Shown here in pieces: positions 1-25,515 of a stretch of 25,515 nucleotides of DNA. Source of the DNA: a virus (taxonomy: Duplodnaviria > Heunggongvirae > Uroviricota > Caudoviricetes). Numbering within the stretch: the first letter of the stretch is position 1; each line of letters starts with the position of its first letter. The notes below the pieces were generated by a model. That model ran no database searches and was not told the origin of the DNA. It saw nothing but the letters and a program-made list of their open reading frames with translations. The stretch lies in IMG/VR virus record IMGVR_UViG_2609459834_000009, positions 1 to 25,515 of that record; one strand, given 5' to 3'. The translations under genes and the position numbers were made by a program.

Positions 1-1053
1 TTACGGGGTAATGCCAACCGCTGCCGCCACTTTGTCGCCACTTGGCAGCGTTGCCAGAGGATTGAAACGGAGCGCCGTTTCCAGATGATCCGGTGCCAGA
101 TGTGCGTAACGCATAGTCATTTTTATATCGTGGTGTCCGAGAATTTTTTGTAAGGCCAGAATGTTTCCACCCGACATCATGAAGTGCGCCGCAAACGTAT
201 GGCGCAGAACGTGTGTGAGTTGACCGCGAGGGAGCACGATAGACGTTTTTTCCATCACGGATAAAAATTGAAAATAGCAGTCTGTGAAGAAATTGAACCC
301 ATCAAGCGCCATGATCTCTTCGTAAAGCTCTTTACTGATAGGGATGCTTCTGTTTTTCTTCCCCTTCGTTCTGACAAAGGTAATTCGGTATTTGGTCACC
401 TGTGAGCGGGTAAGATTTACGGCTTCACGCCAGCGTGCGCCTGTGCTTAAGCATATCTTAACTACCAGTGCCAGAATTGGGTCCTGACGTTTGCAATCAG
501 CCAGCAATTCAACAATCTGCTCATGGGTAAGCCATGCCATCTCTTTTTCTGCGATGGTGAATTTTCGCATGTTCTCCAGTGGGTTCGGATACGACCATTC
601 GCCCAGACGGGATAGTTCGCTAAAAACACTACTTAGATAGCTTTGCTCCAGGTTAATGGTGACCGGGCTTGCTCCTTTCTTCCATTTCTCGCTGAAGTAG
701 ATCTCGCCTGTCAGGCGTTTATCTCGATAGTGGGCAAACATTTTAGAGGTGAGATCGGTTGCAAGAGGATTGCCCAGAGCGTCAACCATCAACAGCAATT
801 TGTCATAGACATGCTGCCCAGCTGTCAGAGATTTACCATGTAGTTTGAACCATAGCTCAACCACGTCTTTCAGTGTTCGACGATCCACTGATTCACCCAG
901 CCAGGGCTTTGCTTCGGTTTCTTCCATCGTGTGGCGCTCAAAAGCCAGTGCTTCGCCTTTGGTGACGAATTGTTTACGCACACGACGCCCACTTCGTCCG
1001 GCGGGGTAACATTCGCAAAGCCATTTCCCAGTGGTGAGTTTTCGTACTGCCAT
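1..1053 (-). CDS. int: Tyrosine-type site-specific integrase (P2/186 family)
   Basis: Translation has the tyrosine recombinase C-terminal catalytic region (ARWREA, HVLRHTFA, MRYAHL). ORF is open to 1209, but the N-terminus aligns with P2 Int from the Met at 1051-1053 (MAVRKLTTGKW); upstream extension judged untranslated. Stop at 1-3. Confidence 0.85.
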   Translation of the reverse strand: MAVRKLTTGKWLCECYPAGRSGRRVRKQFVTKGEALAFERHTMEETEAKPWLGESVDRRTLKDVVELWFKLHGKSLTAGQHVYDKLLLMVDALGNPLATDLTSKMFAHYRDKRLTGEIYFSEKWKKGASPVTINLEQSYLSSVFSELSRLGEWSYPNPLENMRKFTIAEKEMAWLTHEQIVELLADCKRQDPILALVVKICLSTGARWREAVNLTRSQVTKYRITFVRTKGKKNRSIPISKELYEEIMALDGFNFFTDCYFQFLSVMEKTSIVLPRGQLTHVLRHTFAAHFMMSGGNILALQKILGHHDIKMTMRYAHLAPDHLETALRFNPLATLPSGDKVAAAVGITP

Positions 1054-2948: not shown

Positions 2949-3245
2949 ATGCTGACGAAAGAACCATCATTTGCATCGCTGCTGGTAAAACAAAGCCCGG
3001 CAATGCACTACGGTCACGGCTGGATCACGGGTGAGGATGGAAAACGCTGGCATCCATGTCATTCACAAGATGAATTGCTGTCTGAATTGACCACGAGGAA
3101 ACGGAGAAAGTCCAAATGTATGCGGCAGAAAGTGAAGTGGTTTATCAGTTTCGTTACAGAGGGGAGAGTTATTCAGTACCTGAAGATGATTTGCTCTGTT
3201 GCTATCCGTCATTGTCGGGCGATGGCAGTTACTTTTTCACGTTAA
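2949..3245 (+). CDS. Hypothetical early protein (fil-position ORF); 3' portion doubtful
   Basis: ATG at 2949 with GAGGTG RBS. N-terminal 55 aa look protein-like; the C-terminal part overlaps the next ORF in another frame and looks like read-through. Confidence 0.3.
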   Translation: MLTKEPSFASLLVKQSPAMHYGHGWITGEDGKRWHPCHSQDELLSELTTRKRRKSKCMRQKVKWFISFVTEGRVIQYLKMICSVAIRHCRAMAVTFSR

Positions 3246-3771: not shown

Positions 3772-4005
3772 ATGCGTAATATTGAAACCCTCTCGACTAA
3801 AACCGGACCGGATGACGCAGGACTTAATATTTTACTGACAGAGGCTCGTCTGGAAGAACGTCGGGCAAGGGCTGAGGCAATGGCTGCCCGCCTTGATAGC
3901 CTTGCGTGTCATATTACATCCCGCCAGCTAAACCACGTCGAAGCAGCAGAACTGCTGCGTGTGACCGCTGAAGCAATCCAGAACGAAGCGCAGGAGGTCC
4001 ACTAA
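3772..4005 (+). CDS. Hypothetical early protein
   Basis: AGGAGA RBS 7 nt upstream of ATG at 3772 (track start 3766 is TTG); stop overlaps next start (TAATG). Confidence 0.6.
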   Translation: MRNIETLSTKTGPDDAGLNILLTEARLEERRARAEAMAARLDSLACHITSRQLNHVEAAELLRVTAEAIQNEAQEVH

Positions 4006-4232
4006 TGGCTGATGCAATGGATCTCGTACAGCAGCGCGTTGAAGAAGAACGCCAGCGCCATATCCGTGCAGCCCGTGCCAAATCACCGGGCGTGTCACGC
4101 GTACTTTGCATTGAATGTGAAGCGCCAATTCCGCCAGCACGACGCCGCGCCATTCCGGGAGTGCAGCTTTGCATTACCTGTCAGGAAATCGCAGAACTGA
4201 AAGGCAAACATTACAACGGAGGTGCTGTATGA
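4005..4232 (+). CDS. TraR/DksA-family C4 zinc-finger protein
   Basis: Cys-x2-Cys ... Cys-x2-Cys pattern (CIECEAPIP...CITCQ) in a 75-aa protein; AGGAGG RBS; translationally coupled to flanking genes. Confidence 0.75.
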   Translation: MADAMDLVQQRVEEERQRHIRAARAKSPGVSRVLCIECEAPIPPARRRAIPGVQLCITCQEIAELKGKHYNGGAV

Positions 4233-5086: not shown

Positions 5087-7497
5087 GTCATGCCGATATG
5101 AACAACTGCTGCGGCTTTAACGAGGCTGCCGCAGCATTCTCATGGAACAGCCCGAAAAAGGCCATTAACCCTTATCTGGACCCGGCGGAAGTTGCGCCGG
5201 TTTCTACGCTTTCAAACCTGATCACTCTGTACGCTGCCGATAACGAGCAGGAACAGTTGCGCCGCGAGGCACTGAGTGATCAGGTCTGGGAGCGTTATTT
5301 CTTTAATGAATCACGTGATCCTGTCCAGCGCGAAATGGAGCAGGATAAGCTCATTAGCCGGGCAAAGCTGGCGCATGAGCAGCAGCGTTTTAATTCAGAC
5401 ATGGTCATTCTGGCGGACGTCAACGCCCAGCCTTCCCATATCAGCAAGCCGCTGATGCAACGTATTGAATACTTCAGCAGCCTGGGCAGGCCAAAGGCTT
5501 ATTCCCGCTATTTACGTGAGACGATTAAGCCATGTCTGGAACGACTGGAGCATGTACGCGACAGTCAGCTATCTGCATCTTTTCGCTTTATGGCAAGCCA
5601 TGAAGGGCTGGACGGCCTGCTGATCCTGCCTGAAATGAGTCAGGATCAGGTGAAACGCCTGTCCACCCTGGTAGCTGCGCATATGAGTATGTGCCTTGAT
5701 GCAGCTTGTGGTGATTTGTATGCCACCGATGACGTTAAGCCAGAAGAAATCCGCAAGACATGGGAAAAGGTGGCAGCGGAAACCCTGCGTCTGGATGTCA
5801 TCCCACCTGCGTTTGAGCAACTCCGTCGGAAAAGAAACCGCCGTAAACCCGTGCCCTATGAACTCATTCCGGGTTCGCTGGCGCGTATGTTGTGCGCCGA
5901 CTGGTGGTACCGGAAATTATGGAAGATGCGTTGCGAATGGCGGGAAGAGCAGTTGCGCGCTGTTTGCCTGGTCAGCAAAAAAGCATCTCCTTATGTCAGC
6001 TATGAAGCCGTGATGCATAAACGTGAGCAGCGCCGTAAGTCGCTGGAGTTTTTCCGTTCTCATGAACTGGTGAACGAAGACGGCGACACGCTGGACATGG
6101 AGGATGTGGTAAACGCCAGCAGCAGCAACCCTGCGCATCGCCGCAATGAGATGATGGCCTGTGTTAAAGGTCTGGAGCTTATCGCGGAAATGCGCGGTGA
6201 CTGCGCCGTTTTCTACACTATCACCTGTCCGTCGCGTTTCCATTCCACGCTAAATAACGGCAGACCAAACCCGACCTGGACAAACGCGACGGTAAGACAA
6301 AGCAGCGATTATCTGGTCGGCATGTTTGCTGCATTTCGTAAGGCGATGCACAAAGCCGGGTTGCGCTGGTATGGCGTGCGGGTGGCTGAGCCGCATCATG
6401 ATGGCACAGTTCACTGGCACCTGTTGTGTTTCATGCGCAAAAAAGACCGCCGTGCCATCACTGCATTACTGCGTAAGTTTGCCATCCGTGAAGACCGCGA
6501 GGAGCTGGGCAATAACACTGGGCCGCGCTTTAAGTCTGAGTTGATTAACCCGCGCAAAGGAACGCCGACAAGCTACATCGCGAAATATATCAGTAAGAAC
6601 ATTGACGGTCGTGGTCTGGCTGGCGAGATCAGCAAGGAAACGGGTAAATCTCTGCGTGATAACGCTGAATACGTGAATGCCTGGGCGTCTCTGCATCGTG
6701 TTCAGCAATTCCGCTTCTTTGGTATTCCGGGGCGTCAGGCTTACCGTGAACTTCGCTTGCTGGCTGGTCAGGCGGCAAGGCAACAGGGTGACAAAAAAGC
6801 AGGTGCGCCGGTACTGGATAACCCGCGTCTTGATGCCATTCTGGCTGCTGCTGATGCTGGTTGTTTTGCCACCTACATCATGAAGCAGAGCGGCGTACTG
6901 GTTCCCCGTAAATATCACCTCATCAGAACCGCTTATGAAATCAACGAAGAGCCGACCGCCTATGGCGATCACGGCATTCGTATTTATGGCATCTGGTCAC
7001 CCATTGCAGAGGGCAAGATCTGCACTCATGCAGTGAAGTGGAAAATGGTTCGTAAAGCCGTTGACGTTCAGGAGGCGGCAGCCGACCAGGGCGCTTGCGC
7101 CCCTTGGACTCGTGGCAATAACTGTCCCCTTGCTGAAAATTTGAACCAACAAGGGAAAGACAAATCAGCTGATGGGGATACCAGGACGGACATTACCCGC
7201 ATGGATGACAAGGAGTTGCACGATTACCTGCACAGTATGAGCAAAAAAGAGCGCCGGGAACTGGCTGCAAGGTTACGCCTGGTGAAGCCGAAACGGCGTA
7301 AAGACTACAAACAGCGAATTACAGACCATCAGCGACAGCAGCTCGTCTATGAACTGAAGTCCAGAGGATTTGATGGCAGCGAGAAAGAGGTCGATTTACT
7401 CCTTCGCGGCGGCAGTATTCCGTCAGGAGCAGGCCTGCGTATCTTCTATCGGAACCAGCGTTTGCAGGAAGATGATAAGTGGCGAAACCTGTATTAA
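5083..7497 (+). CDS. A: Replication initiation endonuclease (P2 gene A family, rolling-circle)
   Basis: 804-aa product with HUH-like motif (HWHLLCF) and YIAKYISKN active-site tyrosine region; ATGA overlap with dam stop. Confidence 0.85.
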
Positions 7498-8306: not shown

Positions 8307-8378
8307 CGCGCGCCATGTGGTATGGAGATTGGATCTATTCATAACTTGATGTATAAAGTAGAAAAAAGCGGGGAGATT

Positions 8379-9302
8379 ATGAATAAAAAATTTACCGATG
8401 AGCAGCAACAACAGCTTATAGGACATCTCACAAAGAAAGGCTTCTATCGAGGAGCTAATATTAAAATAACCATTTTTCTATGTGGTGGTGACGTTGCTAA
8501 TCATCAATCTTGGCGTCATCAATTATCACAATTTTTAGCAAAGTTCAGTGATGTTGATATATTTTATCCAGAAGATCTATTTGATGATCTTTTGGCTGGT
8601 CAAGGGCAGCATAGCCTTTTAAGTTTAGAAAATATTCTGGCTGAAGCTGTCGATGTAATAATTTTATTTCCTGAAAGTCCGGGGTCTTTCACAGAGCTTG
8701 GTGCGTTCTCTAATAATGAAAACTTAAGGAGAAAGTTGATTTGCATTCAAGATGCAAAATTTAAATCAAAACGTAGCTTTATTAACTATGGTCCTGTTCG
8801 CCTGTTGCGTAAGTTTAATTCAAAATCTGTTTTGCGTTGTAGTTCAAATGAACTAAAAGAAATGTGTGATTCATCTATTGATGTTGCCAGAAAATTACGA
8901 TTATATAAAAAATTAATGGCATCTATTAAGCAGGTTAGGAAAGAAAATAAAGTATCAAAAGATATTGGAAATATATTATACGCAGAGCGGTTTCTATTGC
9001 CTTGTATCTATTTACTGGATAGTGTCAACTACCGCACACTGTGTGAACTAGCTTTTAAAGCGATAAAGCAAGATGATGTTTTATCTAAAATTATTGTTAG
9101 ATCCGTTGTTTCTCGTCTAATAAATGAACGAAAAATACTTCAAATGACTGATGGTTATCAGGTCACTGCTTTGGGGGCTAGCTATGTTAGGAGCGTCTTT
9201 GATAGAAAGACACTTGACCGATTGCGGCTTGAGATTATGAATTTTGAAAACCGTAGAAAATCAACATTTAACTATGATAAGATTCCGTATGCGCACCCTT
9301 AG
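8379..9302 (+). CDS. Retron effector protein (putative nucleoside 2-deoxyribosyltransferase-like N-domain plus C-terminal domain)
   Basis: 308-aa ORF in AT-rich DNA immediately upstream of msr-msd; its stop codon (TAG 9300-9302) lies inside the a1 repeat. Start ambiguous (ATG at 8322, 8349 or 8379). Confidence 0.7.
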   Translation: MNKKFTDEQQQQLIGHLTKKGFYRGANIKITIFLCGGDVANHQSWRHQLSQFLAKFSDVDIFYPEDLFDDLLAGQGQHSLLSLENILAEAVDVIILFPESPGSFTELGAFSNNENLRRKLICIQDAKFKSKRSFINYGPVRLLRKFNSKSVLRCSSNELKEMCDSSIDVARKLRLYKKLMASIKQVRKENKVSKDIGNILYAERFLLPCIYLLDSVNYRTLCELAFKAIKQDDVLSKIIVRSVVSRLINERKILQMTDGYQVTALGASYVRSVFDRKTLDRLRLEIMNFENRRKSTFNYDKIPYAHP

Positions 9303-9458
9303 CGAGAGGTTTATCATTAAGGTCAACCTCTGGATGTTGTTTCGGCATCCTGCATTGAATCTGAGTTACTGTCTGTTTTCCTTGTTGGAACGGAGAGCAT
9401 CGCCTGATGCTCTCCGAGCCAACCAGGAAACCCGTTTTTTCTGACGTAAGGGTGCGCA
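9290..9458 (+). ncRNA. msr-msd: Retron msr-msd non-coding RNA (template/primer for msDNA)
   Basis: Flanked by 12-nt inverted repeats a1 TGCGCACCCTTA (9290-9301) and a2 TAAGGGTGCGCA (9447-9458); internal msr hairpin AGAGGTT/AACCTCT and long imperfect msd stem around GGAGAGCATC-gcct-GATGCTCTCC; sits directly upstream of the RT gene. Matches my recollection of the Ec86 ncRNA. Confidence 0.85.
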
Positions 9459-9464
9459 ACTTTC

Positions 9465-10427
9465 ATGAAATCCGCTGAATATTTGAACACTTTTAGATTG
9501 AGAAATCTCGGCCTACCTGTCATGAACAATTTGCATGACATGTCTAAGGCGACTCGCATATCTGTTGAAACACTTCGGTTGTTAATCTATACAGCTGATT
9601 TTCGCTATAGGATCTACACTGTAGAAAAGAAAGGCCCAGAGAAGAGAATGAGAACCATTTACCAACCTTCTCGAGAACTTAAAGCCTTACAAGGATGGGT
9701 TCTACGTAACATTTTAGATAAACTGTCGTCATCTCCTTTTTCTATTGGATTTGAAAAGCACCAATCTATTTTGAATAATGCTACCCCGCATATTGGGGCA
9801 AACTTTATACTGAATATTGATTTGGAGGATTTTTTCCCAAGTTTAACTGCTAACAAAGTTTTTGGAGTGTTCCATTCTCTTGGTTATAATCGACTAATAT
9901 CTTCAGTTTTGACAAAAATATGTTGTTATAAAAATCTGCTACCACAAGGTGCTCCATCATCACCTAAATTAGCTAATCTAATATGTTCTAAACTTGATTA
10001 TCGTATTCAGGGTTATGCAGGTAGTCGGGGCTTGATATATACGAGATATGCCGATGATCTCACCTTATCTGCACAGTCTATGAAAAAGGTTGTTAAAGCA
10101 CGTGATTTTTTATTTTCTATAATCCCAAGTGAAGGATTGGTTATTAACTCAAAAAAAACTTGTATTAGTGGGCCTCGTAGTCAGAGGAAAGTTACAGGTT
10201 TAGTTATTTCACAAGAGAAAGTTGGGATAGGTAGAGAAAAATATAAAGAAATTAGAGCAAAGATACATCATATATTTTGCGGTAAGTCTTCTGAGATAGA
10301 ACACGTTAGGGGATGGTTGTCATTTATTTTAAGTGTGGATTCAAAAAGCCATAGAAGATTAATAACTTATATTAGCAAATTAGAAAAAAAATATGGAAAG
10401 AACCCTTTAAATAAAGCGAAGACCTAA
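9465..10427 (+). CDS. ret: Retron-type reverse transcriptase
   Basis: 320-aa product with RT motifs QGAPSSPKLANL and YADD, plus the retron-characteristic VTG motif (RKVTGLVI). Confidence 0.9.
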   Translation: MKSAEYLNTFRLRNLGLPVMNNLHDMSKATRISVETLRLLIYTADFRYRIYTVEKKGPEKRMRTIYQPSRELKALQGWVLRNILDKLSSSPFSIGFEKHQSILNNATPHIGANFILNIDLEDFFPSLTANKVFGVFHSLGYNRLISSVLTKICCYKNLLPQGAPSSPKLANLICSKLDYRIQGYAGSRGLIYTRYADDLTLSAQSMKKVVKARDFLFSIIPSEGLVINSKKTCISGPRSQRKVTGLVISQEKVGIGREKYKEIRAKIHHIFCGKSSEIEHVRGWLSFILSVDSKSHRRLITYISKLEKKYGKNPLNKAKT

Positions 10428-10444: not shown

Positions 10445-11470
10445 CTAAAGCTCATAGGTTGAAAAATTGAGCACTTCTTCGTCCAACCAGTTATTTAGTT
10501 CCTGCAATCGTTTCTGCAGGGGCATCAATTCGTTTCTTACGAATACCTTGCTAGCCTTCTCCACATCCCCAAACCCCCCGACATTATTAGGCATAATTCC
10601 CATCATTTGCGGCGGCACGCGGTGTGCCGCCATCATGTCATCACGGCTCACGTTCTTGATATTCAGAAACTCATCCTTCGCTGCGACTTCTGACAACGGG
10701 ATAATCTGAAGTCCGTCTTTTTTACCATTAGGCGAGTACATAAACAGGTTGCGGAAGTTGCCAGGGCCTTTGGCACTTTTCATCGCATTGCGGAGGTTGT
10801 TCACATCTTCCTGGTTCTGCGCGGCGTCGGTCATATACATGATGAAGCCAGCATGACTGCCGTTAATGTAATACTTTCGACGGAACAGCGTGGCGGACTC
10901 ATTGAGCAGGGCGGACGGAATGGCAGAAAGATAGCCTGGCAAGCCGTAGATCTCCTGGTTAATGTCCGGTTCCATCAGATGAAAAATGCTGCCTTTCGTG
11001 AACTGATACGGCTGGGTTGTCATACCGTATTGCACAAACCAGTAGGTATCCAGGTCTAACCCGCGTCGGGTGTATTTTGCCAGTGCAGGCTCAAGGGCGA
11101 TAACTTCACCGAAGCGGTTCGTGCGTTTCTCCAGGTAGGCGTTACCAAAAACCAGATAGTCCTGCACAAAACGCGAAAAAGCCTGCTGGCTGAGCAGCGG
11201 GTGAGGGATGTAGGTGCTGGTCAGAATGTTGCACTTCACTGCAATCGGTGAGCTGTGATGCACGGCGGCGCGGAAGGTTCGCGCCAGTCCGTCGAAACTC
11301 ACAGGCGGCTCATACCAACGATCCATCTGTACGCATTCCACATAGTCCAGCAGTTCGCGGCGGTCCAGAACAGGAACGGGATCGCCAAAGCTGAATGCTT
11401 CGGCTGAAGTTTGGTTTTTATGCTGGATCTGATTCGTCGCCGCAGCGCGTTTTTTCTTACTCTTTCCCAT
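10445..11470 (-). CDS. Q: Portal protein (P2 gpQ family)
   Basis: 341-aa product co-linear with P2 Q; ATG at 11468-11470 with GGAG RBS; start overlaps terminase stop (TGATG). Confidence 0.85.
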   Translation of the reverse strand: MGKSKKKRAAATNQIQHKNQTSAEAFSFGDPVPVLDRRELLDYVECVQMDRWYEPPVSFDGLARTFRAAVHHSSPIAVKCNILTSTYIPHPLLSQQAFSRFVQDYLVFGNAYLEKRTNRFGEVIALEPALAKYTRRGLDLDTYWFVQYGMTTQPYQFTKGSIFHLMEPDINQEIYGLPGYLSAIPSALLNESATLFRRKYYINGSHAGFIMYMTDAAQNQEDVNNLRNAMKSAKGPGNFRNLFMYSPNGKKDGLQIIPLSEVAAKDEFLNIKNVSRDDMMAAHRVPPQMMGIMPNNVGGFGDVEKASKVFVRNELMPLQKRLQELNNWLDEEVLNFSTYEL

Positions 11471-13236
11471 CAAAAAATCTCCACAATATTGCTGGTATTG
11501 GCGGATTCGCCCTGCAGCGGTTCGTTAAACAGTGCGTGCATGGTTGCCCAGGCCAGATCGGCATGGCTGGCTTCTTCGCTGCGGCTGGCTTCATAGGTTG
11601 GGCGGTTGCCGCTGGCGGTGGTGGCGCGACGGATTGCCATAAATGACTGCGCTATGTCGGTGTGTCCGGCGTCAAACTCCAGACGACGGTGACTGATAAT
11701 GTCGTAGGCCTTGAGTACCAGGGCGTTTTTAACGTTGGGGTTGTAGACAAACTCCCGGACGGCTGGAAAAAACGCTTTCACGTTCTCGTAAACCCCGTGG
11801 CCGACACCTGTCGAGTCGATGCCGATGTAGGTCACGTTGTACTGTTCGGTCAGTTTTTTGATGGCGTCAGCCTGGGCGCGAAAGTCCATTCCGCGCCACT
11901 GGTGACGCTCAAGAATGCGGAACTTGCCGCCCGGCACGGCTGGCGGTGCTACCACCACGCATCCGGCGCTGTCGCCATTCTGCGTACCTTTCGCCGGGTC
12001 ATAACCGATCCATACTTCGCGCCAGCCAAACGGGCGCAGGGCCAGTGCATGAAAGTCAGTCCAGACTTCCCAGCTGTCTACCATGCACGCCTGCAGCTCG
12101 CTGAGCGGGAACACGGACGCGAGATCGTCCACAAACTCGCACATCAGCAGGTTCTGGTATTCGTCCGGGCTGTACTCCATGCGCAACTGGTCAAGGTCGA
12201 ACAGGTTACAGCCGCCGCGCACCGCATCTTCCACGGTGACTATCTGGCGGTATTGCCCGTCTGCGCACAGCAGGCCGGGGGCCAGATTGCTGTGGGACAG
12301 GTCGATGTCCACCTTATCGGCTTTGTTGCGCCCACGGTTGAACAGCGCACCGGACCAGAACGGATAAGCACTGTGTGTCAGGCTGGATGGCGTGGAAAAA
12401 TAGGTTTGTCGCCATTTTTTGTGAATAGCCATACCGGAAGCCACTTTGCGCAGCTCCTGGAATTTCGGTATCCAGAAATATTCATCCAGATACAGGTTGC
12501 CGTGGTAACTCTGGGCCGTGCGGGCATTGGTGCCGAGGAAGTAAAGCGTGGCCCCGTTGGGAAGCACCATCGGATCGCCTTTCAGCTCCACCTCCACTTC
12601 TTTGGCGAAGTCGATGATGTACTGCTTAAAGACGTGGGCCTGTGCCTTACTGGCAGAAAGGAAAATCTGGTTACGTCCGGTAAGCAGGGCGTCAATCAGG
12701 GCTTCACGGGCAAAATAGAAGGTCGCGCCGATCTGGCGTGACTTCAGCAGGTTGCGGATGCGGTTGGTTTTTCCGGCTTCCCACCAGTGGCGCTGGTAGT
12801 TGAACATGGAGGAATGGAAAATTTCTTCCAGCTTCTCAATCTGTTCATCGGTGAAAACATTCTTTTCAGGCTGACGGCGTGGGCCTTTGTTGCGGTTGGC
12901 GACGTTAGGGTTTAAGTCAGCTTCGTTGCCGCCATTGTTAAACTTGCCGATCCGCGCGTGGCGCTCCGACTGGCGCGCCAGCAGGTCAATCTCTTTGAAA
13001 TCTTTCCCTTCTTTGTGCTCCTTCATGATGAGCTGGCAGTAGCGTGCGGCGGTGGTGAGCTGCATCTGATCCAGCGGCCCATAGTCACCCCACTTGTCGC
13101 GTTTTTTCCAGCTGTGAACGGTTGCAGCTTTCTCGCCCAGCATTTCAGCAATGCGGGCTACGCGGTATCCCTGAAAGTACAGCAGCATGGCCTGCCGACG
13201 GGGATCGAGATCTGCGGGTGTCAGTGTGGTGTTCAT
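11470..13236 (-). CDS. P: Terminase large (ATPase) subunit (P2 gpP family)
   Basis: 588-aa product; size and position upstream of portal on the minus strand as in P2. Confidence 0.9.
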   Translation of the reverse strand: MNTTLTPADLDPRRQAMLLYFQGYRVARIAEMLGEKAATVHSWKKRDKWGDYGPLDQMQLTTAARYCQLIMKEHKEGKDFKEIDLLARQSERHARIGKFNNGGNEADLNPNVANRNKGPRRQPEKNVFTDEQIEKLEEIFHSSMFNYQRHWWEAGKTNRIRNLLKSRQIGATFYFAREALIDALLTGRNQIFLSASKAQAHVFKQYIIDFAKEVEVELKGDPMVLPNGATLYFLGTNARTAQSYHGNLYLDEYFWIPKFQELRKVASGMAIHKKWRQTYFSTPSSLTHSAYPFWSGALFNRGRNKADKVDIDLSHSNLAPGLLCADGQYRQIVTVEDAVRGGCNLFDLDQLRMEYSPDEYQNLLMCEFVDDLASVFPLSELQACMVDSWEVWTDFHALALRPFGWREVWIGYDPAKGTQNGDSAGCVVVAPPAVPGGKFRILERHQWRGMDFRAQADAIKKLTEQYNVTYIGIDSTGVGHGVYENVKAFFPAVREFVYNPNVKNALVLKAYDIISHRRLEFDAGHTDIAQSFMAIRRATTASGNRPTYEASRSEEASHADLAWATMHALFNEPLQGESANTSNIVEIF

Positions 13237-13282
13237 GGCACAAACCTACAACCTTGAATGAATGCTTTCCCCGCCTGCGGTT

Positions 13283-13300
13283 TGTGTGGTTGTCGGTACA
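13283..13300. promoter_or_regulatory. TGT-N12-ACA dyad in the P/O divergent promoter region (candidate late-activator site)
   Basis: TGTgtggttgtcggtACA in the 142-bp intergenic region between divergent P and O genes; form matches the P2-family late promoter activator element. Confidence 0.4.
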
Positions 13301-13378
13301 AATACCGCGCATTGTTTCACTGCCCCCATCACCGCAACCATAAGGCTCCAGTAAGTTTTTTCTAACGGAGCACGGCTC

Positions 13379-14212
13379 ATGACAGTGAAAGCAAAGCGTT
13401 TTCGCATCGGGGTGGAAGGTGCCACCACCGACGGACGCGAAATCCAGCGTGAATGGCTGGAACAGATGGCAGCCAGCTACAACCCGGCGGTGTATACCGC
13501 GCTGATTAACCTTGAGCACATCAAGTCTTATCTGCCGGACAGCACCTTTAACCGCTACGGTAAGGTGACGGCGCTGTTTGCTGAAGAAATCACGGAAGGT
13601 CCGCTGGCAGGCAAGATGGCGCTGTATGCCGACGTTGAGCCAACGGAGTCCCTGGTGGAACTGGTGAAAAAAGGCCAGAAATTATTCACCTCTATGGAAG
13701 TCAGCCCGAAGTTTGCTGATACGGGCAAAGCCTACCTGGTCGGCCTGGCAGCCACTGATGACCCTGCCAGTCTGGGCACTGAAATGCTGACATTCAGCGC
13801 CAGTGCAGCCCATAACCCGCTGGCAAACCGCAAGCAGAATCCCGCCAATCTCTTTACAGCCGCAGAGGAAACGGTGATCGAACTGGAAGAAATCCAGGAG
13901 GACAAGCCGTCCCTGTTTGCCCGTGTCACGGCGCTGTTCACCAAAAAAGAGCAGTCCGATGACGCCCGGTTCTCTGATGTGCATAAGGCCGTGGAACTGG
14001 TCGCCACTGAGCAGCAGAACCTGAGTGCGCGCACCGAAAAATCCCTGTCTGAGCAGGAAGAGCGCCTGTCTGAGCTGGAGACAGCCCTGCAGGCACAGCA
14101 GACCGCCTTTAACGAACTGGTGGACAAGCTGAGCCAAGAAGACAGCCGCCAGGACTACCGCCAGCGTGCAACAGGCGGTAACGCCCCCGCTGACACTCTG
14201 ACCAATTGCTGA
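13379..14212 (+). CDS. O: Capsid scaffolding protein (P2 gpO family)
   Basis: 277-aa product; first gene of the rightward capsid operon; acidic coiled-coil-like C-terminal half. Confidence 0.85.
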   Translation: MTVKAKRFRIGVEGATTDGREIQREWLEQMAASYNPAVYTALINLEHIKSYLPDSTFNRYGKVTALFAEEITEGPLAGKMALYADVEPTESLVELVKKGQKLFTSMEVSPKFADTGKAYLVGLAATDDPASLGTEMLTFSASAAHNPLANRKQNPANLFTAAEETVIELEEIQEDKPSLFARVTALFTKKEQSDDARFSDVHKAVELVATEQQNLSARTEKSLSEQEERLSELETALQAQQTAFNELVDKLSQEDSRQDYRQRATGGNAPADTLTNC

Positions 14213-19187: not shown

Positions 19188-19205
19188 TGTATCAGCACTG
19201 ATACA
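19188..19205. promoter_or_regulatory. TGT-N12-ACA near-perfect palindrome between S and V (candidate late-activator site and/or S terminator hairpin)
   Basis: TGTATCAGcaCTGATACA directly after the S stop; no U-tract follows. Confidence 0.35.
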
Positions 19206-19251
19206 AGTTGCAGCACTGCCGCCTTTCTTCCCCTGATGGCAACCTTTCCCT

Positions 19252-21679: not shown

Positions 21680-23415
21680 GCACAAAATTTTATACCCTGC
21701 TGACGGATATTGGCGCGGCGAAACTTGCCAGCGCCGCCGCGCTCGGTGTGCCGCTAAAAATTACCCATATGGCGGTGGGCGATGGCGGCGGAGTATTGCC
21801 AACGCCGGACGCAAAGCAGACGGCACTGGTAAATGAGAAACGCCGGGCTGCGCTGAATATGCTTTATATCGACCCGCAGAACAGCAGCCAGATTATTGCT
21901 GAACAGGTGATCCCTGAAAACGAGGGCGGTTGGTGGATACGTGAAGTGGGCCTGTTTGATGAGTCCGGGGCATTGATTGCCGTGGGAAACTGCCCGGAAA
22001 GCTATAAGCCGCAACTGGCTGAAGGCAGCGGGCGTACCCAGACCGTGCGCATGGTGCTGATTACCAGCAGTACGGACAATATCACCCTGAAAATCGACCC
22101 TGCTGTAGTGCTGGCAACCCGCAAGTATGTGGATGACAAGGCACTGGAGCTGAAGGTGTACGCGGATGATCAGATGGCAAAACATCTTGCCGCACCGGAC
22201 CCGCATTCACAGTACGCGCCAAAAGCCAGCCCGACATTTACCGGAACCCCCAAAGCGCCAACGCCAGCGGCGGGGAATAATACCACGCAGGTTGCGACCA
22301 CTGCGTTTGTACAGGCGGCACTGACGGACCTTATTAATGGTGCGCCAGCCACGCTGGACACGCTGAAAGAAATAGCCGCAGCCATTAACAATGATCCGAA
22401 TTTCAGTACCACCATTAACAATGCGCTGGCACTAAAAGCACCGTTGTCGAGTCCGGCACTCACCGGAACGCCAACAGCCCCCACGGCGGCGCAGTCGGTC
22501 AACAATACACAGATTGCCACTACGGCTTTTGTGAAATCGGCGATTGCAGGAATGGTGGGTTCTGCACCTGCTGCACTGGATACACTGAACGAACTGGCGG
22601 CGGCACTGGGGAATGATCCGAACTTTGCCACGACAATGCTTAATGCGCTGGCAGGTAAACAACCGCTGGACAATACGCTTACCAATTTGAGTGGAAAGGA
22701 TGTAGCTGGTCTTCTCACATACCTTGGTATTAAAAACGCATCAACAACACAGGTGGGTTTAGTCCGGTTAACGTCATCGCGGGTATCGGGTGCAGAGGAT
22801 ATTGCAGCCACAGCTAATGCTGTCGCGCAAAACTATACGGACATAAAATCTTTGCAAAACAAAACTCAGGATTCAACTACGACACAGAAAGGAATTGTTC
22901 AACTTACATCATCAAGGGTATCCGAATCTGAAACGCTTGCTGCAACAGCAAAAGCGGCAGCGATGAATTATGCGGATATTGTAGCTCTGCAAGGCAAGAC
23001 TAATGATGCAACCACTACAAACAAGGGAATTATCCGCGTATCTGATTCCAGAACATCAACAGAATCTGGTGTTGCTGCATCATCACTTGCTGCATCACAA
23101 AACTATTCAGATATGAAAGGGTTGTTTGGTCAATGCGGAATGAAATCTAGAAATCTCGGTGTCGTATACACCAACAGCCAGTCTTTCGCCATATTTGTAA
23201 GCGTCAATGCGGTGCTGTCTGACGGTAGTTCATTTCTGAGCGCCAACGTAAGCGTGGATGGTAATTCGGCTAATTTTCGCGGCTCTCAGACAACAAATCT
23301 TGCAGGGCAAAGAGCAACTATCGCATTCATGGTTCCTGCCGGTGCGACCTATATTGTGCAGCAGTTTTCAGGAACAGTGTCAGATGTTACCTGGGTAGAG
23401 GTGGATAAAAAATGA
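21676..23415 (+). CDS. H: Tail fibre protein H with internal repeats and an AT-rich C-terminal receptor-binding region
   Basis: 579-aa product; conserved P2-H-like N-terminus; two tandem ~72-aa repeats and three ~43-aa repeats; composition shifts to AT-rich after about 22670. Confidence 0.85.
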   Translation: MSTKFYTLLTDIGAAKLASAAALGVPLKITHMAVGDGGGVLPTPDAKQTALVNEKRRAALNMLYIDPQNSSQIIAEQVIPENEGGWWIREVGLFDESGALIAVGNCPESYKPQLAEGSGRTQTVRMVLITSSTDNITLKIDPAVVLATRKYVDDKALELKVYADDQMAKHLAAPDPHSQYAPKASPTFTGTPKAPTPAAGNNTTQVATTAFVQAALTDLINGAPATLDTLKEIAAAINNDPNFSTTINNALALKAPLSSPALTGTPTAPTAAQSVNNTQIATTAFVKSAIAGMVGSAPAALDTLNELAAALGNDPNFATTMLNALAGKQPLDNTLTNLSGKDVAGLLTYLGIKNASTTQVGLVRLTSSRVSGAEDIAATANAVAQNYTDIKSLQNKTQDSTTTQKGIVQLTSSRVSESETLAATAKAAAMNYADIVALQGKTNDATTTNKGIIRVSDSRTSTESGVAASSLAASQNYSDMKGLFGQCGMKSRNLGVVYTNSQSFAIFVSVNAVLSDGSSFLSANVSVDGNSANFRGSQTTNLAGQRATIAFMVPAGATYIVQQFSGTVSDVTWVEVDKK

Positions 23416-23780
23416 TAACAATGATGAAGTATTACAAAGATGAAAATAACGTCGTATATGCCTACGATGCGTATGGCACACAGGATGCTTTTATCAAAGA
23501 AGGGCTTGTGCCAATCACCAGAAGTGAGGCTATGGCAATTATTAATCCCCCACCGACTCATGAACAACTCATCCAGGCTGCTGAAAATGAGCGACAGCGA
23601 TTACTGTCCGCCGCTGATGCAATTATGCTCGACTGGCGCACAGAGCTGATGCTGGGTGAAATCAGCGATGCCAACAGAGCTAAACTTTCGGCGTGGCTTT
23701 TATATAAGAATCAGGTTAAGGCTGTTGATGTAACAACCGACCCTGAGCATGTTAACTGGCCTGTCATCCCGGAACTTTAG
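23412..23780 (+). CDS. G: Tail fibre assembly chaperone (gpG/Tfa family)
   Basis: 122-aa ORF immediately after H with ATGA overlap; AT-rich like the H C-terminus. Confidence 0.7.
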   Translation: MITMMKYYKDENNVVYAYDAYGTQDAFIKEGLVPITRSEAMAIINPPPTHEQLIQAAENERQRLLSAADAIMLDWRTELMLGEISDANRAKLSAWLLYKNQVKAVDVTTDPEHVNWPVIPEL

Positions 23781-23785
23781 CTGGT

Positions 23786-23971
23786 TTGGCTATTGCCAGA
23801 TCCAAAGGCCGGATTGGTGGGCGTAGACCGAAGTTTAGCGACGAGCAGTGGCAACAGATGGGAGCGCTCATAGCGGCAGGGAAATCACGGCGTTATGTTG
23901 CACGTATCTATAACGTTGGGCTATCAACCCTATATAAACGATTTCCTGTTACTGGCATTCAAACGAAATAA
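23786..23971 (+). pseudogene. C-terminal fragment of a Gin/Pin/Hin-type serine DNA invertase (HTH domain only)
   Basis: Translation LAIARSKGRIGGRRPKFSDEQWQQ...VGLSTLYKRFP matches the C-terminal DNA-binding domain of invertases; no catalytic N-terminal domain; no ATG (TTG in track); similarity begins about 23771, directly at the tfa stop. Confidence 0.6.
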
Positions 23972-24107
23972 TTTATTTAAAGAGTTATTTGTCTAATGTT
24001 GGAAGCCGCAGCCACGTCGTATGCAAGAACGTGCTGCGGCTGGCTGGAGAACTTTCGATAGTGCGAGTATTGAATGATTTCCAGCCGTTACCGATTTTAC
24101 GTGTTAA

Positions 24108-24356
24108 TTAGTGAACAAACCACTCGTCAGCAGATTCCCAGGTATCTTTCAGAGTCTCCTGAACAAAAGTTTTTGCAGAATCCTTATCTGCTGTGCGTGT
24201 AACAGAAAGGCCATCGTTGCTGGTGGCTTTTACGATCACCTCTACATCGTCATAACGTTTACTGATGCGTCGGGTTAATTCTTCCTTTAACGCATCCACA
24301 GCACCGGTTGGCATTTTAGTCATTTTTTCTTTGGCTATGCAGATTTCAATACGCAT
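24108..24356 (-). CDS. DinI-family protein (second paralog)
   Basis: 82-aa product [11 protein letters not shown]...[10 protein letters not shown], close to my recollection of E. coli DinI. Confidence 0.8.
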
Positions 24357-24369
24357 AAAAGTCCCTCTA

Positions 24370-24417
24370 TACTGTGTTTGTATACAGTATTATTTTTAAC
24401 TGTATAGATAAACAGTG
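24370..24417. promoter_or_regulatory. Two tandem LexA boxes upstream of the second dinI-like gene
   Basis: tACTGTgtttgtatACAGta (24370-24389) and aaCTGTatagataaACAGtg (24398-24417), both CTGT-N8-ACAG. Confidence 0.65.
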
Positions 24418-25515
24418 TCAAGAGGCCTTATTTCTGCTCCTTTGGAGCTCTTCAAAACGATTATGTAAAGATTTCGGATACAGTTCGGTATATACCTGCC
24501 ATAGCACGTTTAATGAACGATGCCCTGTAACCTGGGCGACTTCCTCAATACTAAAACCAGCCTCAAATAAGCGACTTGCCCCTTCTCTACGCAAATCATG
24601 GTATCGCAGATCTTTAATACCTAATTTGCTTCTTACCCTCTGGAATCCCGCAGTAACAGAAGTGCTGTTATATGGAAAAATGAATTCTGATTTTTTGGGT
24701 TGTCGTTGGACGATATCCCAGGCTTCCCCAAGCAAGGCTACTTTCATATGGTTGCCTTCCTTTTTACGTGGATCTTTCCTGTCTCTTACGAGTATGGATT
24801 TTTGTTCCTGATCGAGATCCTCCCATCGTAATCGGCATACTTCACCGATTCGCATACATGACCACACAGAAAATTTGAGGATATCAACGAACGGAATTTT
24901 TGAGCATTTATGTGTAGATCGTTGTTGAAGACCTTCAATGAGCATGTCCAGTTCATCAGATGCCGGTCTACGATTACGACGATTTGATTTACCAATTAAA
25001 CCAAGTTTAAGTAGATATGGACGAGCGGCTTTTGCTGGGTTTGATGTGTAATTAATTCCATATACAGGTTTGGCAGCATCCAGAACACTGCCAAGATAAC
25101 TAACATCGTGGCTAACTGTAGCTGGACCTGCACCAGCGTTGTTTCTTAGCCTGCAATGTTCAATTACGTCATTTTCTGTCAGTTCAGATAGTTTGATCGC
25201 GGAGATGTCACTATCCATAAGCAGTTCCAGCACATATCTTTTAGTACGGCCTGCTTTACCTCCGGCATTTGGGTCATTTAAATATTTGTGTAGTAAGTCA
25301 CGGACTGTAAGTCCGTCAACTGCATTTGATGATGGAATGCCATATAGATCTAATTCCATCACTTTCTGTGTGCCCCATGTTTTGGCATGAGCATGTTTAG
25401 GGAATGTTTTACTTTCCCTGTAAGTGATAACACCTTTTTCTTTGATAATCACATTACAGCGATAGCGTGGTGTGCCATCGGATTTTAGTCGTTTCTCTAT
25501 GTTATAGTACGCCAT
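24418..25515 (-). CDS. Tyrosine-type integrase of a second integrative element (start at window edge; may be N-terminally incomplete)
   Basis: 365-aa translation with phage-integrase C-terminal catalytic region (HDLRREGASRL, ...VYTELYP); the ATG at 25513-25515 is the last codon of the window. Confidence 0.75.
   Translation of the reverse strand: MAYYNIEKRLKSDGTPRYRCNVIIKEKGVITYRESKTFPKHAHAKTWGTQKVMELDLYGIPSSNAVDGLTVRDLLHKYLNDPNAGGKAGRTKRYVLELLMDSDISAIKLSELTENDVIEHCRLRNNAGAGPATVSHDVSYLGSVLDAAKPVYGINYTSNPAKAARPYLLKLGLIGKSNRRNRRPASDELDMLIEGLQQRSTHKCSKIPFVDILKFSVWSCMRIGEVCRLRWEDLDQEQKSILVRDRKDPRKKEGNHMKVALLGEAWDIVQRQPKKSEFIFPYNSTSVTAGFQRVRSKLGIKDLRYHDLRREGASRLFEAGFSIEEVAQVTGHRSLNVLWQVYTELYPKSLHNRFEELQRSRNKAS

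What the first reader, a model, noticed from the sequence alone, without database searches (positions are those of the whole stretch)
13283..13300. TGT-N12-ACA dyad in the P/O divergent late promoter region, with no activator gene in the window
The element form matches the binding site of Ogr/B/Delta-type zinc-finger late activators in P2-family phages. Its centre lies about 55 bp upstream of the P start codon and about 88 bp upstream of O. No ogr/B gene is present, so late transcription here would need an activator supplied in trans.
Basis: partly seen in the sequence, partly recalled or inferred. Interest (0 to 1): 0.45.

Follow-up and report, generated by a model that had tools for sequence, protein, structure and literature searches.

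The report
Shared late-promoter activator site, P2-like prophage
The short symmetric DNA motif between the terminase (P) and scaffold (O) genes is the ordinary, conserved docking site for the Ogr/B-type late-gene activator of P2-like phages, and the activator gene is missing only because this prophage copy is cut off after its tail-fibre genes.

Summary
Positions 13283-13300 read TGTGTGGTTGTCGGTACA, a perfect TGT-N12-ACA. Its centre lies 55.5 bp from the P start codon and 87.5 bp from the O start codon.

The pattern alone is not enriched: 4 matches in the window against 6.9 expected. Position and conservation make it real.
- It lies where phages P2 and 186 have their annotated, shared PP/PO activator site.
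- Both arms are kept while the spacer varies in 77 close relatives and in 56 of 77 distinct prophage intergenic sequences from other species.
- A second dyad (19188-19205) lies 55.5 bp upstream of the V start codon.

In P2 the mapped transcript starts lie 55.5 bp on either side of the dyad centre. Here that rule puts the P transcript start on the A of the P ATG. A TAnnnT hexamer sits at -12..-7, and no ribosome-binding site precedes P (0 of 77, against 68 of 77 for O). The P-Q mRNA is therefore predicted to be leaderless, as P2 gene V already is.

No Ogr/B/Delta homologue is in the window. The prophage ends at about 23.8 kb, fused to the end of a dusA-site prophage on a draft contig. Intact relatives carry ogr after gene D. 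This is a known kind of element with a small new twist, so interest is low.

The parts
13283..13300 (.). TGT-N12-ACA dyad (extends to TTGT...ACAA at 13282-13301). Predicted binding site for the Ogr/B-type activator, shared by the divergent PP and PO late promoters.
   Evidence: Searches give the sequence. Searches show the same position as the annotated P2 and 186 activator sites. Searches show the arms conserved and the spacer variable.
13243..13248 (-). Predicted -10 hexamer of PP (TAGGTT on the minus strand; TATGTT, TAGGCT, TATTTT or TAGCCT in relatives), at -12..-7 from the A of the P ATG.
   Evidence: A TAnnnT hexamer sits at -12..-7 in 53 of 77 distinct relatives; another 21 carry AGCCTT or AGGCTT there, read as the same hexamer one base further upstream.
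13236..13236 (-). Predicted PP transcription start. It coincides with the A of the P (terminase large subunit) ATG, which gives a leaderless P-Q mRNA. This is inferred, not measured.
   Evidence: the base at centre+55.5 reproduces the P2 and 186 p12 annotated starts (186 pV is off by one) and falls on the ATG here; this spacing is exact in 51 of 56 relatives with a perfect dyad, and none of 77 has a ribosome-binding core upstream of P.
11470..13236 (-). Gene P homologue (terminase ATPase subunit, 588 aa), first gene of the P-Q late operon.
   Evidence: The N-terminal DPRRQA motif is shared with P2 and 186, so the upstream ATG is the true start.
10445..11473 (-). Gene Q homologue (portal), second gene of the P-Q operon.
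13312..13317 (+). Conserved TTGTTT, a weak -35-like element of PO, about 17-18 bp upstream of the -10-like hexamer.
   Evidence: the CGCnTTGT block is invariant in 8 relatives..
13335..13341 (+). Predicted -10 region of PO (CAACCA or AACCAT), inside the conserved block ATCACCGCAACCATAAGGC. It resembles the PV hexamer CAACCT and the PF hexamers CAACAT and GAACAT of relatives.
13347..13347 (+). Predicted PO transcription start (centre+55.5, uncertain by a few bases), giving a leader of about 32 nt that carries the O ribosome-binding site GGAG at 13367-13370.
   Evidence: GGAG is invariant. A ribosome-binding core is present upstream of O in 68 of 77 relatives.
13379..14212 (+). Gene O homologue (capsid scaffold), first gene of the O late operon, which runs through the head, lysis and R/S genes to about 19183.
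19188..19205 (.). Second late-promoter dyad, TGTATCAGCACTGATACA (8-bp arms), for PV. Its centre is 55.5 bp upstream of the V ATG (19252), with the -10-like CAACCT at 19240-19245. This is the same geometry as P2 PV, where the annotated start is the V ATG.
22723..23779 (+). Segment (C-terminal part of tail-fibre gene H plus the tail-fibre assembly gene) shared by P2-like prophages and by the dusA-site prophage. The P2-like prophage is joined to foreign DNA somewhere in this zone.
23786..25515 (.). Not P2-like: an invertase remnant (HTH_7 only, 23786-23971), a DinI-like gene (24108-24356, minus strand) and a dusA-type integrase (24418-25515, minus strand). These occupy the place where intact relatives have the invertase, the F operon and ogr.

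Best explanation
The dyad at 13283-13300 is the single, shared binding site for a P2 Ogr / 186 B-type zinc-finger activator. From a position centred about 55.5 bp upstream of each start, it switches on the two divergent late promoters. PP drives the P-Q operon (terminase and portal) leftwards. PO drives the O operon (head, lysis and tail-completion genes) rightwards. The promoters have weak -10-like hexamers and no consensus -35, so they should be silent without the activator. In this lineage the 23-nt leader that P2 and 186 have on the P mRNA is missing. The predicted PP start therefore falls on the A of the P ATG, and the P-Q mRNA is most likely leaderless, as is the V operon mRNA (dyad at 19188-19205). 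The cognate activator gene is absent because this copy of the prophage ends after the tail-fibre assembly gene. In intact relatives the gene lies after tail gene D, next to attR. What is shown: the sequence, its position, its conservation, and the absence of an Ogr homologue. What is inferred: activator binding, the transcription starts and leaderless translation.
For: The sequence and coordinates are confirmed.

Homology to mapped sites. The P2 record annotates one activator site (3057-3087) for both pO and pP, with starts at 3016 and 3127. The 186 record annotates one B site (3798-3817) for p12 and pV. When all promoters are aligned on the dyad centre, the base at centre+55.5 reproduces both P2 starts and 186 p12, and falls one base short of the annotated 186 pV end. 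In the window that base is the A of the P ATG, the A of the V ATG, and position 13347 for PO. Hexamers of the form TAnnnT or xAxxxT sit at -12..-7 in each case.

Conservation.
- In 8 phages at 76-99% identity, TGT and ACA are invariant while only 4 of 12 spacer positions are. About 49% of all intergenic columns are invariant.
- In 77 IMG/VR relatives the arms are invariant, with 4 spacer variants.
- Among 77 distinct intergenic sequences from other species, 56 have a perfect dyad, with 31 different spacers. The centre-to-P-ATG distance is 55.5 in 51 of these, while the centre-to-O-ATG distance varies from 81.5 to 100.5.
- A ribosome-binding core occurs upstream of P in 0 of 77 and upstream of O in 68 of 77.

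Other support. No consensus sigma-70 promoter is found in 13150-13450. Intact relatives have matching dyads upstream of V and FI, and a PF04606 Ogr gene after D. A published statement gives the TGT-N12-ACA consensus for the four Ogr-dependent P2 late promoters (PMC3931495). P2 is cited as a source of a leaderless gene (PMC4633059), and the P2 record puts the V operon start on the V ATG.
Against: There is no experimental evidence for this lineage: no mapped 5' ends, no footprint, no reporter data. The six-base pattern is not enriched in the window. The PO -10 is poor (CAACCA or AACCAT), so the PO start is uncertain by a few bases. In the window itself, though not in most relatives, the PP -10 hexamer TAGGTT contains AGGT 7 nt from the ATG. 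That could act as a weak ribosome-binding site if a longer transcript existed. Two deposited annotations (RE-2010, 4LV2017) start P 16 codons further in. That methionine is not conserved, being A in P2 and L in several relatives.
Confidence: 0.85

Rival explanations
1. The dyad serves only PO. P is transcribed from a different start, or translated from a leadered mRNA that uses the AGGT at -11..-8 as a ribosome-binding site.
For: The window has AGGT 7 nt upstream of the P ATG. The PO geometry alone would justify conservation of the dyad.
Against: Most relatives have TATGTT or TATTTT there and no ribosome-binding core (0 of 77). The dyad-to-P-ATG distance is fixed at 55.5 in 51 of 56, while the O side drifts by 19 bp. 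The hexamer aligns with the P2 and 186 PP -10, TAGCCT. In P2 and 186 the site is annotated as serving both promoters. No other promoter-like site lies in the 142-bp interval.
Confidence: 0.08
2. The match is a chance TGT-N12-ACA with no function, or the site of an unrelated DNA-binding protein.
For: The pattern occurs 4 times against 6.9 expected in the window. Two of the other matches (12842, 13225) look like chance.
Against: The arms are invariant with variable spacers in 133 related sequences. The position is homologous to the annotated P2 and 186 sites. The same motif and spacing occur upstream of V, and upstream of FI in relatives. The dyad has no hairpin potential beyond shuffles, z = -0.49.
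Confidence: 0.03
3. The missing activator is an assembly artefact. In the real genome the P2-like prophage is intact, with the F operon and ogr, and the assembler jumped to the dusA-site prophage through the tail-fibre segment of about 1 kb that both share.
For: The window lies at the end of a draft contig (GCA_000703505.1, JNPE01000026.1), which stops 192 bp after the window. Segment 22723-23779 is shared at 98-99% identity by P2-like and dusA prophages in other genomes. None of 5,426 complete E. coli genomes has this junction.
Against: A related prophage record (ON470620) is also broken at the same point in H and joined to other chromosomal DNA, so rearrangements there do occur. The contig is continuous across the junction.
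Confidence: 0.4
4. The locus is a helper-dependent (satellite-like) element that has dispensed with its own activator by design.
For: Late promoters are present without an activator gene. P4 delta and P2 ogr both promote expression of P2 late genes (PMC8628076).
Against: The element keeps its own immunity, replication, head, lysis and baseplate genes. It has none of the satellite hallmarks (psu, sid, delta, alpha). It is collinear with intact ogr-bearing prophages up to an abrupt junction.
Confidence: 0.02

Closest known systems
Phage P2 PP/PO shared activator (Ogr) site, NC_001895 3057-3087
   Same: A single partial dyad lies between the divergent P and O genes. Transcript starts lie 55.5 bp on either side of its centre. 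The -10 hexamers are weak (TAGCCT, GAAACT) and there is no -35 consensus. The site is part of a set of late promoters with the same motif.
   Different: The P2 site is imperfect (TGT-N12-CCA); here it is a perfect TGT-N12-ACA. P2 has a 23-nt P leader with a GAGGT ribosome-binding site and a 173-bp interval. Here the interval is 142 bp and the predicted start is the ATG itself. P2 carries ogr; the window does not.
Phage 186 p12/pV B-protein site, NC_001317 3798-3817
   Same: The overall genome type is the same (CI, Apl, CII, Fil-type early region). There is one shared site, and the dyad-to-O-homologue distance is identical (87.5 bp).
   Different: The 186 site is TGT-N12-CCA. Phage 186 has a 23-nt leader on the P homologue. 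Its B gene is present, next to attP.
Phage P2 PV promoter / leaderless gene V
   Same: The activator site is centred 55.5 bp upstream of an ATG that is also the annotated transcription start. The window's V has the same geometry, and its P gene is predicted to have it too.
   Different: In P2 only V is leaderless. Here both V and P are predicted to be.
Satellite P4 late promoters (Psid, PLL) and the Delta activator
   Same: They belong to the same activator family. P4 delta and P2 ogr both promote expression of P2 and P4 late genes (PMC8628076). So an activator from another element could drive the promoters in this window.
   Different: P4 is a satellite without structural genes and it encodes its own activator. 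The window is a truncated helper-type prophage.

Membership tests
P2-family Ogr/B/Delta-dependent late promoter | Partial dyad TGT-N12-ACA | tested here: met
   An exact match at 13283-13300 and a second at 19188-19205.
P2-family Ogr/B/Delta-dependent late promoter | Dyad centred about 55 bp upstream of the transcription start | tested here: inconclusive
   No 5' ends are available. By geometry, centre+55.5 reproduces the annotated P2 and 186 p12 starts (186 pV is off by one), and here it lands 7 nt after -10-like hexamers on both sides.
P2-family Ogr/B/Delta-dependent late promoter | Located upstream of the late operons (P-Q, O..., V..., F...) | tested here: met
   Met for PP/PO and PV in the window. 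PF dyads are present in intact relatives. The F operon itself is absent from the window.
P2-family Ogr/B/Delta-dependent late promoter | No consensus sigma-70 -35/-10 promoter, so an activator is needed | tested here: met
   No consensus promoter in 13150-13450.
P2-family Ogr/B/Delta-dependent late promoter | Conservation of the half-sites in related phages | tested here: met
   Arms invariant and spacer variable.
P2-family Ogr/B/Delta-dependent late promoter | Bound and activated by a C4 zinc-finger Ogr/B/Delta protein | not testable with these tools
   This needs a footprint or EMSA and reporter assays.
P2-family Ogr/B/Delta-dependent late promoter | Cognate activator gene (PF04606) in the same element | tested here: not met
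   Absent from the window. Present after gene D in intact relatives.
Leaderless mRNA (P-Q operon) | The transcript 5' end coincides with the A of an AUG start codon | not testable with these tools
   This is only predicted, from the fixed 55.5-bp spacing and the -10 hexamer at -12..-7.
Leaderless mRNA (P-Q operon) | AUG start codon and no ribosome-binding site upstream | tested here: met
   A conserved ATG lies just upstream of the DPRRQ motif in 79 of 80 loci (it was selected as an ATG by the script). No ribosome-binding core was found upstream of P in any of 77 distinct sequences, against 68 of 77 for O.
P4-like satellite / helper-dependent element | Lacks structural genes; carries psu, sid, delta, alpha | tested here: not met
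   The window encodes portal, terminase, capsid, lysis and baseplate genes, and no satellite genes.

The most novel reading that the evidence does not exclude
In this very widespread branch of P2-like prophages of Enterobacterales, unlike the model phages P2 and 186, the terminase-portal (P-Q) operon is transcribed as a leaderless mRNA. Its 5' end would be the A of the P start codon, placed exactly 55.5 bp from the centre of the Ogr-type activator site. Two of the four late operons (P-Q and V-G) would then depend on leaderless translation initiation. A side effect is that several deposited genomes annotate the P start wrongly.
Probability: 0.6. Interest if true: 0.35.

Novelty: new member of a known kind. 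Interest (0 to 1): 0.2.

Why it matters
The result places the late promoters of a very common E. coli, Klebsiella and Salmonella prophage family on the well-studied P2/186 model. That gives exact coordinates for PP, PO and PV. It also shows that the apparent 'orphan' promoter is only a truncated or chimeric prophage copy. The one new point is that the terminase operon is probably leaderless in most relatives. This point is cheap to test, corrects start-codon annotations, and bears on engineering P2/P4-based packaging systems and on how late-gene translation is balanced.

Tried and rejected
- Pattern frequency as evidence: rejected, with 4 observed against 6.9 expected.
- My first recollection of two separate dyads, one per promoter: rejected. 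The P2 and 186 records annotate one shared site.
- Hairpin or terminator reading of the dyad: rejected. The fold is no better than shuffles. The scan's 'terminator' at 13294-13307 is a 5-bp stem that overlaps the dyad.
- Internal Met17 as the true P start, as annotated in RE-2010 and 4LV2017: rejected. The upstream DPRRQA motif is conserved as protein through to P2 and 186, and that Met is not conserved.
- Another activator hidden in the window: none. The only zinc-finger ORF (4005-4232) is DksA/TraR-type.
- Rfam scan of the window: no hits.
- Primary P2 promoter papers (PMC177091 and a P2 review): not held in the library. The TSS positions therefore rest on the GenBank feature tables.
- Identifying the rest of the source assembly to look for ogr: not possible with these tools. 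The integrase look-up returned other genomes only.

Full report
**Observation.** Positions 13283-13300 read TGTGTGGTTGTCGGTACA, an exact TGT-N12-ACA. It extends to TTGT...ACAA at 13282-13301. It lies in the 142-bp interval between the P homologue (11470-13236, minus strand) and the O homologue (13379-14212, plus strand).

The six specified bases are not statistically remarkable. The window holds 4 matches, and shuffles give 6.86 +/- 2.9. Of the other three, 12842 is inside P. The match at 13225 spans the P start codon and is lost in relatives. The match at 19188 is discussed below.

**What the window is.** The window is the left 23.8 kb of a 186/P2-type prophage of the family Peduoviridae. It is 96-99.8% identical over the matched stretches to E. 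coli phage vB_EcoM-813R9, phage 500465-1 and Klebsiella phage 4LV2017. The gene content, in order, is:
- integrase (1-1053, minus strand) and a CI-type repressor;
- CII, DUF5347, a DksA/TraR zinc-finger protein, Dam methylase, replication protein A and a DinI/Tum-like protein;
- a type II-A retron in the variable cargo hotspot;
- Q and P on the minus strand;
- O, N, M, L, X, the lysis genes, R, S, V, W, J, I, H and a tail-fibre assembly gene on the plus strand.

**Comparison with the experimentally studied phages.** The P2 record annotates one activator binding site (3057-3087) for both pO and pP. Its transcript starts are at 3016 for P and 3127 for O. The 186 record annotates one B-protein site (3798-3817) for p12 and pV. 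The dyads are TGTGTCAGTGATAAGCCA in P2 and TGTGTGGGCGGTTGTCCA in 186.

I aligned all promoters on the dyad centre. The base at centre+55.5 is exactly the annotated P2 PP start, the P2 PO start and the 186 p12 start. For 186 pV it falls one base short of the annotated promoter end. Positions -12..-7 hold TAGCCT for PP and GAAACT for PO.

The same ruler applied to the window gives three results.
- PP: the start falls on 13236, the A of the P ATG, preceded by TAGGTT at -12..-7.
- PO: the start falls at about 13347, preceded by CAACCA or AACCAT. That leaves a 32-nt leader carrying GGAG at 13367-13370.
- PV: the dyad TGTATCAGCACTGATACA (19188-19205) puts the start on 19252, the A of the V ATG, preceded by CAACCT.

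Intact relatives also have a dyad 83.5-85.5 bp upstream of FI, with CAACAT or GAACAT at -12..-7. No consensus sigma-70 promoter exists in 13150-13450. The dyad has no hairpin potential beyond shuffles. A published statement gives the TGT-N12-ACA consensus for the four Ogr-dependent P2 late promoters and describes the Ogr zinc finger (PMC3931495).

**Conservation.**
- In eight phages sharing 76-99% identity over this region, TGT and ACA are invariant, as are the flanking T and A. Only 4 of 12 spacer positions are invariant. About 49% of all intergenic columns are invariant. The other conserved blocks coincide with the predicted -10 and -35-like elements and with the O ribosome-binding site.
- In 77 IMG/VR relatives (23 distinct intergenic sequences) the arms never change, and four spacer variants occur.
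- In 80 loci from different bacterial species (O protein 48-99% identical), 77 distinct intergenic sequences were recovered. Of these, 56 carry a perfect TGT-N12-ACA, with 31 different spacers. The centre-to-P-ATG distance is 55.5 in 51, 56.5 in 1, 57.5 in 2 and 83.5 in 2. The centre-to-O-ATG distance ranges from 81.5 to 100.5.
- A TAnnnT hexamer sits at -12..-7 from the P ATG in 53 of the 77. Another 21 carry AGCCTT or AGGCTT there, which I read as the same hexamer one base further upstream.
- A ribosome-binding core (GGAG, GAGG or AGGA) occurs upstream of P in 0 of 77, and upstream of O in 68 of 77.
- Most of the 21 sequences without a perfect dyad show a P2-like imperfect one in the same region, for example TGTGCCAGCGGTTAGCGA. 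I checked its position by hand in only one of them.

**Mechanism.** The best-supported reading has four parts.
- One activator site serves both divergent promoters from about -55.5, as in P2 and 186.
- The activator would be an Ogr/B-type C4 zinc-finger protein. Intact relatives encode a PF04606 protein.
- The window lacks the 23-nt P leader that P2 and 186 have. The distance from dyad centre to P ATG is 78.5 bp in those phages and 55.5 bp here.
- The P-Q mRNA is therefore predicted to be leaderless.

There is precedent in the same regulon. The P2 record puts the V operon start on the V ATG, and P2 is cited among the few classical sources of leaderless genes in E. coli (PMC4633059). The upstream ATG is the real P start, because the DPRRQA motif that follows it is conserved as protein in P2 and 186. 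The internal Met used in two deposited annotations is not conserved. Binding, the transcription starts and leaderless translation are inferences. Nothing here measures them.

**The missing activator.** No Ogr/B/Delta homologue is present.
- tblastn gave a best E-value of 0.56.
- A profile search of all six-frame ORFs gave a best E-value of 1.1, against 2.6e-46 in a positive control.
- Pfam scans of the early-region and right-end ORFs found only a DksA/TraR zinc finger.

The reason is structural. In intact relatives the order is H, the tail-fibre assembly gene, the invertase region, FI through D, ogr, then attR. In the window, sequence from about 22723 onward matches the end of a dusA-site prophage. 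That stretch holds the tail-fibre assembly gene, an invertase remnant, a DinI-like gene and a dusA-type integrase. Segment 22723-23779 is common to both prophage types.

The source is a draft contig, GCA_000703505.1 JNPE01000026.1. It ends 192 bp after the window. No complete E. coli genome among 5,426 has this junction. The arrangement is therefore either a real recombination between two prophages or an assembler mis-join through the shared segment. A related prophage record is broken at the same point in H, which shows that real breaks occur there. I cannot decide between the two.

Either way, 'activator supplied in trans' is a consequence of truncation, not a design. Such supply is biologically plausible. 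P4 delta and P2 ogr both promote expression of P2 late genes, and P4-like elements occur in more than 30% of Enterobacterales genomes (PMC8628076).

**Verdict.** This is a real, conserved, orthologous Ogr/B-type late-promoter site: a new member of a known kind. The modestly new point is the predicted leaderless terminase operon, which appears to be the common state in this branch while P2 and 186 are the exceptions. Interest is low, at 0.2.

Noticed in passing
window 8322-10427: A type II-A retron sits in the variable cargo hotspot between the DinI/Tum-like gene and Q. The effector (8322-9302) matched PADLOC NDT_II-A at 3.6e-94, and the reverse transcriptase (9465-10427) matched RT_II-A at 7e-128. 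Rfam found no msr/msd RNA at gathering threshold.
   Followed up: partly
window 22723-25515: The P2-like prophage is fused, within the C-terminal part of tail-fibre gene H and the assembly gene, to the terminal genes of a dusA-site prophage (invertase remnant, DinI-like gene, integrase). The window therefore has an integrase at each end. The source contig ends 192 bp further on. This is either a real inter-prophage recombination or a mis-assembly.
   Followed up: partly
L001 (ON470620.1) 5185-6261: The closest 'phage' record is itself a prophage broken at the same point in H and joined to ybjT. The flanking chromosomal genes lie in opposite orientations, which suggests a prophage-mediated inversion.
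   Followed up: no
window 13246-13380 (minus strand): A 44-aa 'hypothetical protein' is called across the P/O intergenic region in the source assembly and in ON470620. It overlaps the dyad and both predicted promoters and is most likely a spurious gene call.
   Followed up: no
L007 (RE-2010) and L011 (4LV2017), P homologue start: These records annotate the terminase start 16 codons downstream of the conserved ATG. That removes the conserved DPRRQA motif and is probably an annotation error caused by the lack of a ribosome-binding site.
   Followed up: partly
L182-L191, interval between the DinI-like gene and the portal gene: Ten genomes with an identical integrase, all next to the TetR-family gene at the rcdA/ybjL site, carry different cargo in the same hotspot. 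Examples are a NotI-like restriction-modification system, SEFIR/TIR, GmrSD, HEPN, GAPS4 and a reverse transcriptase.
   Followed up: no
window 19188-19205: The PV dyad is a much longer palindrome (8-bp arms, TGTATCAG/CTGATACA) than the PP/PO dyad. It begins 5 bp after the stop codon of S.
   Followed up: partly
L150, L152 (Yersinia) and L100 (phage vB_YenM_42.18): A minority of relatives place the dyad 83.5-103.5 bp from the P ATG, which implies a leadered P mRNA as in P2 and 186. Leader loss or gain has therefore happened more than once.
   Followed up: no
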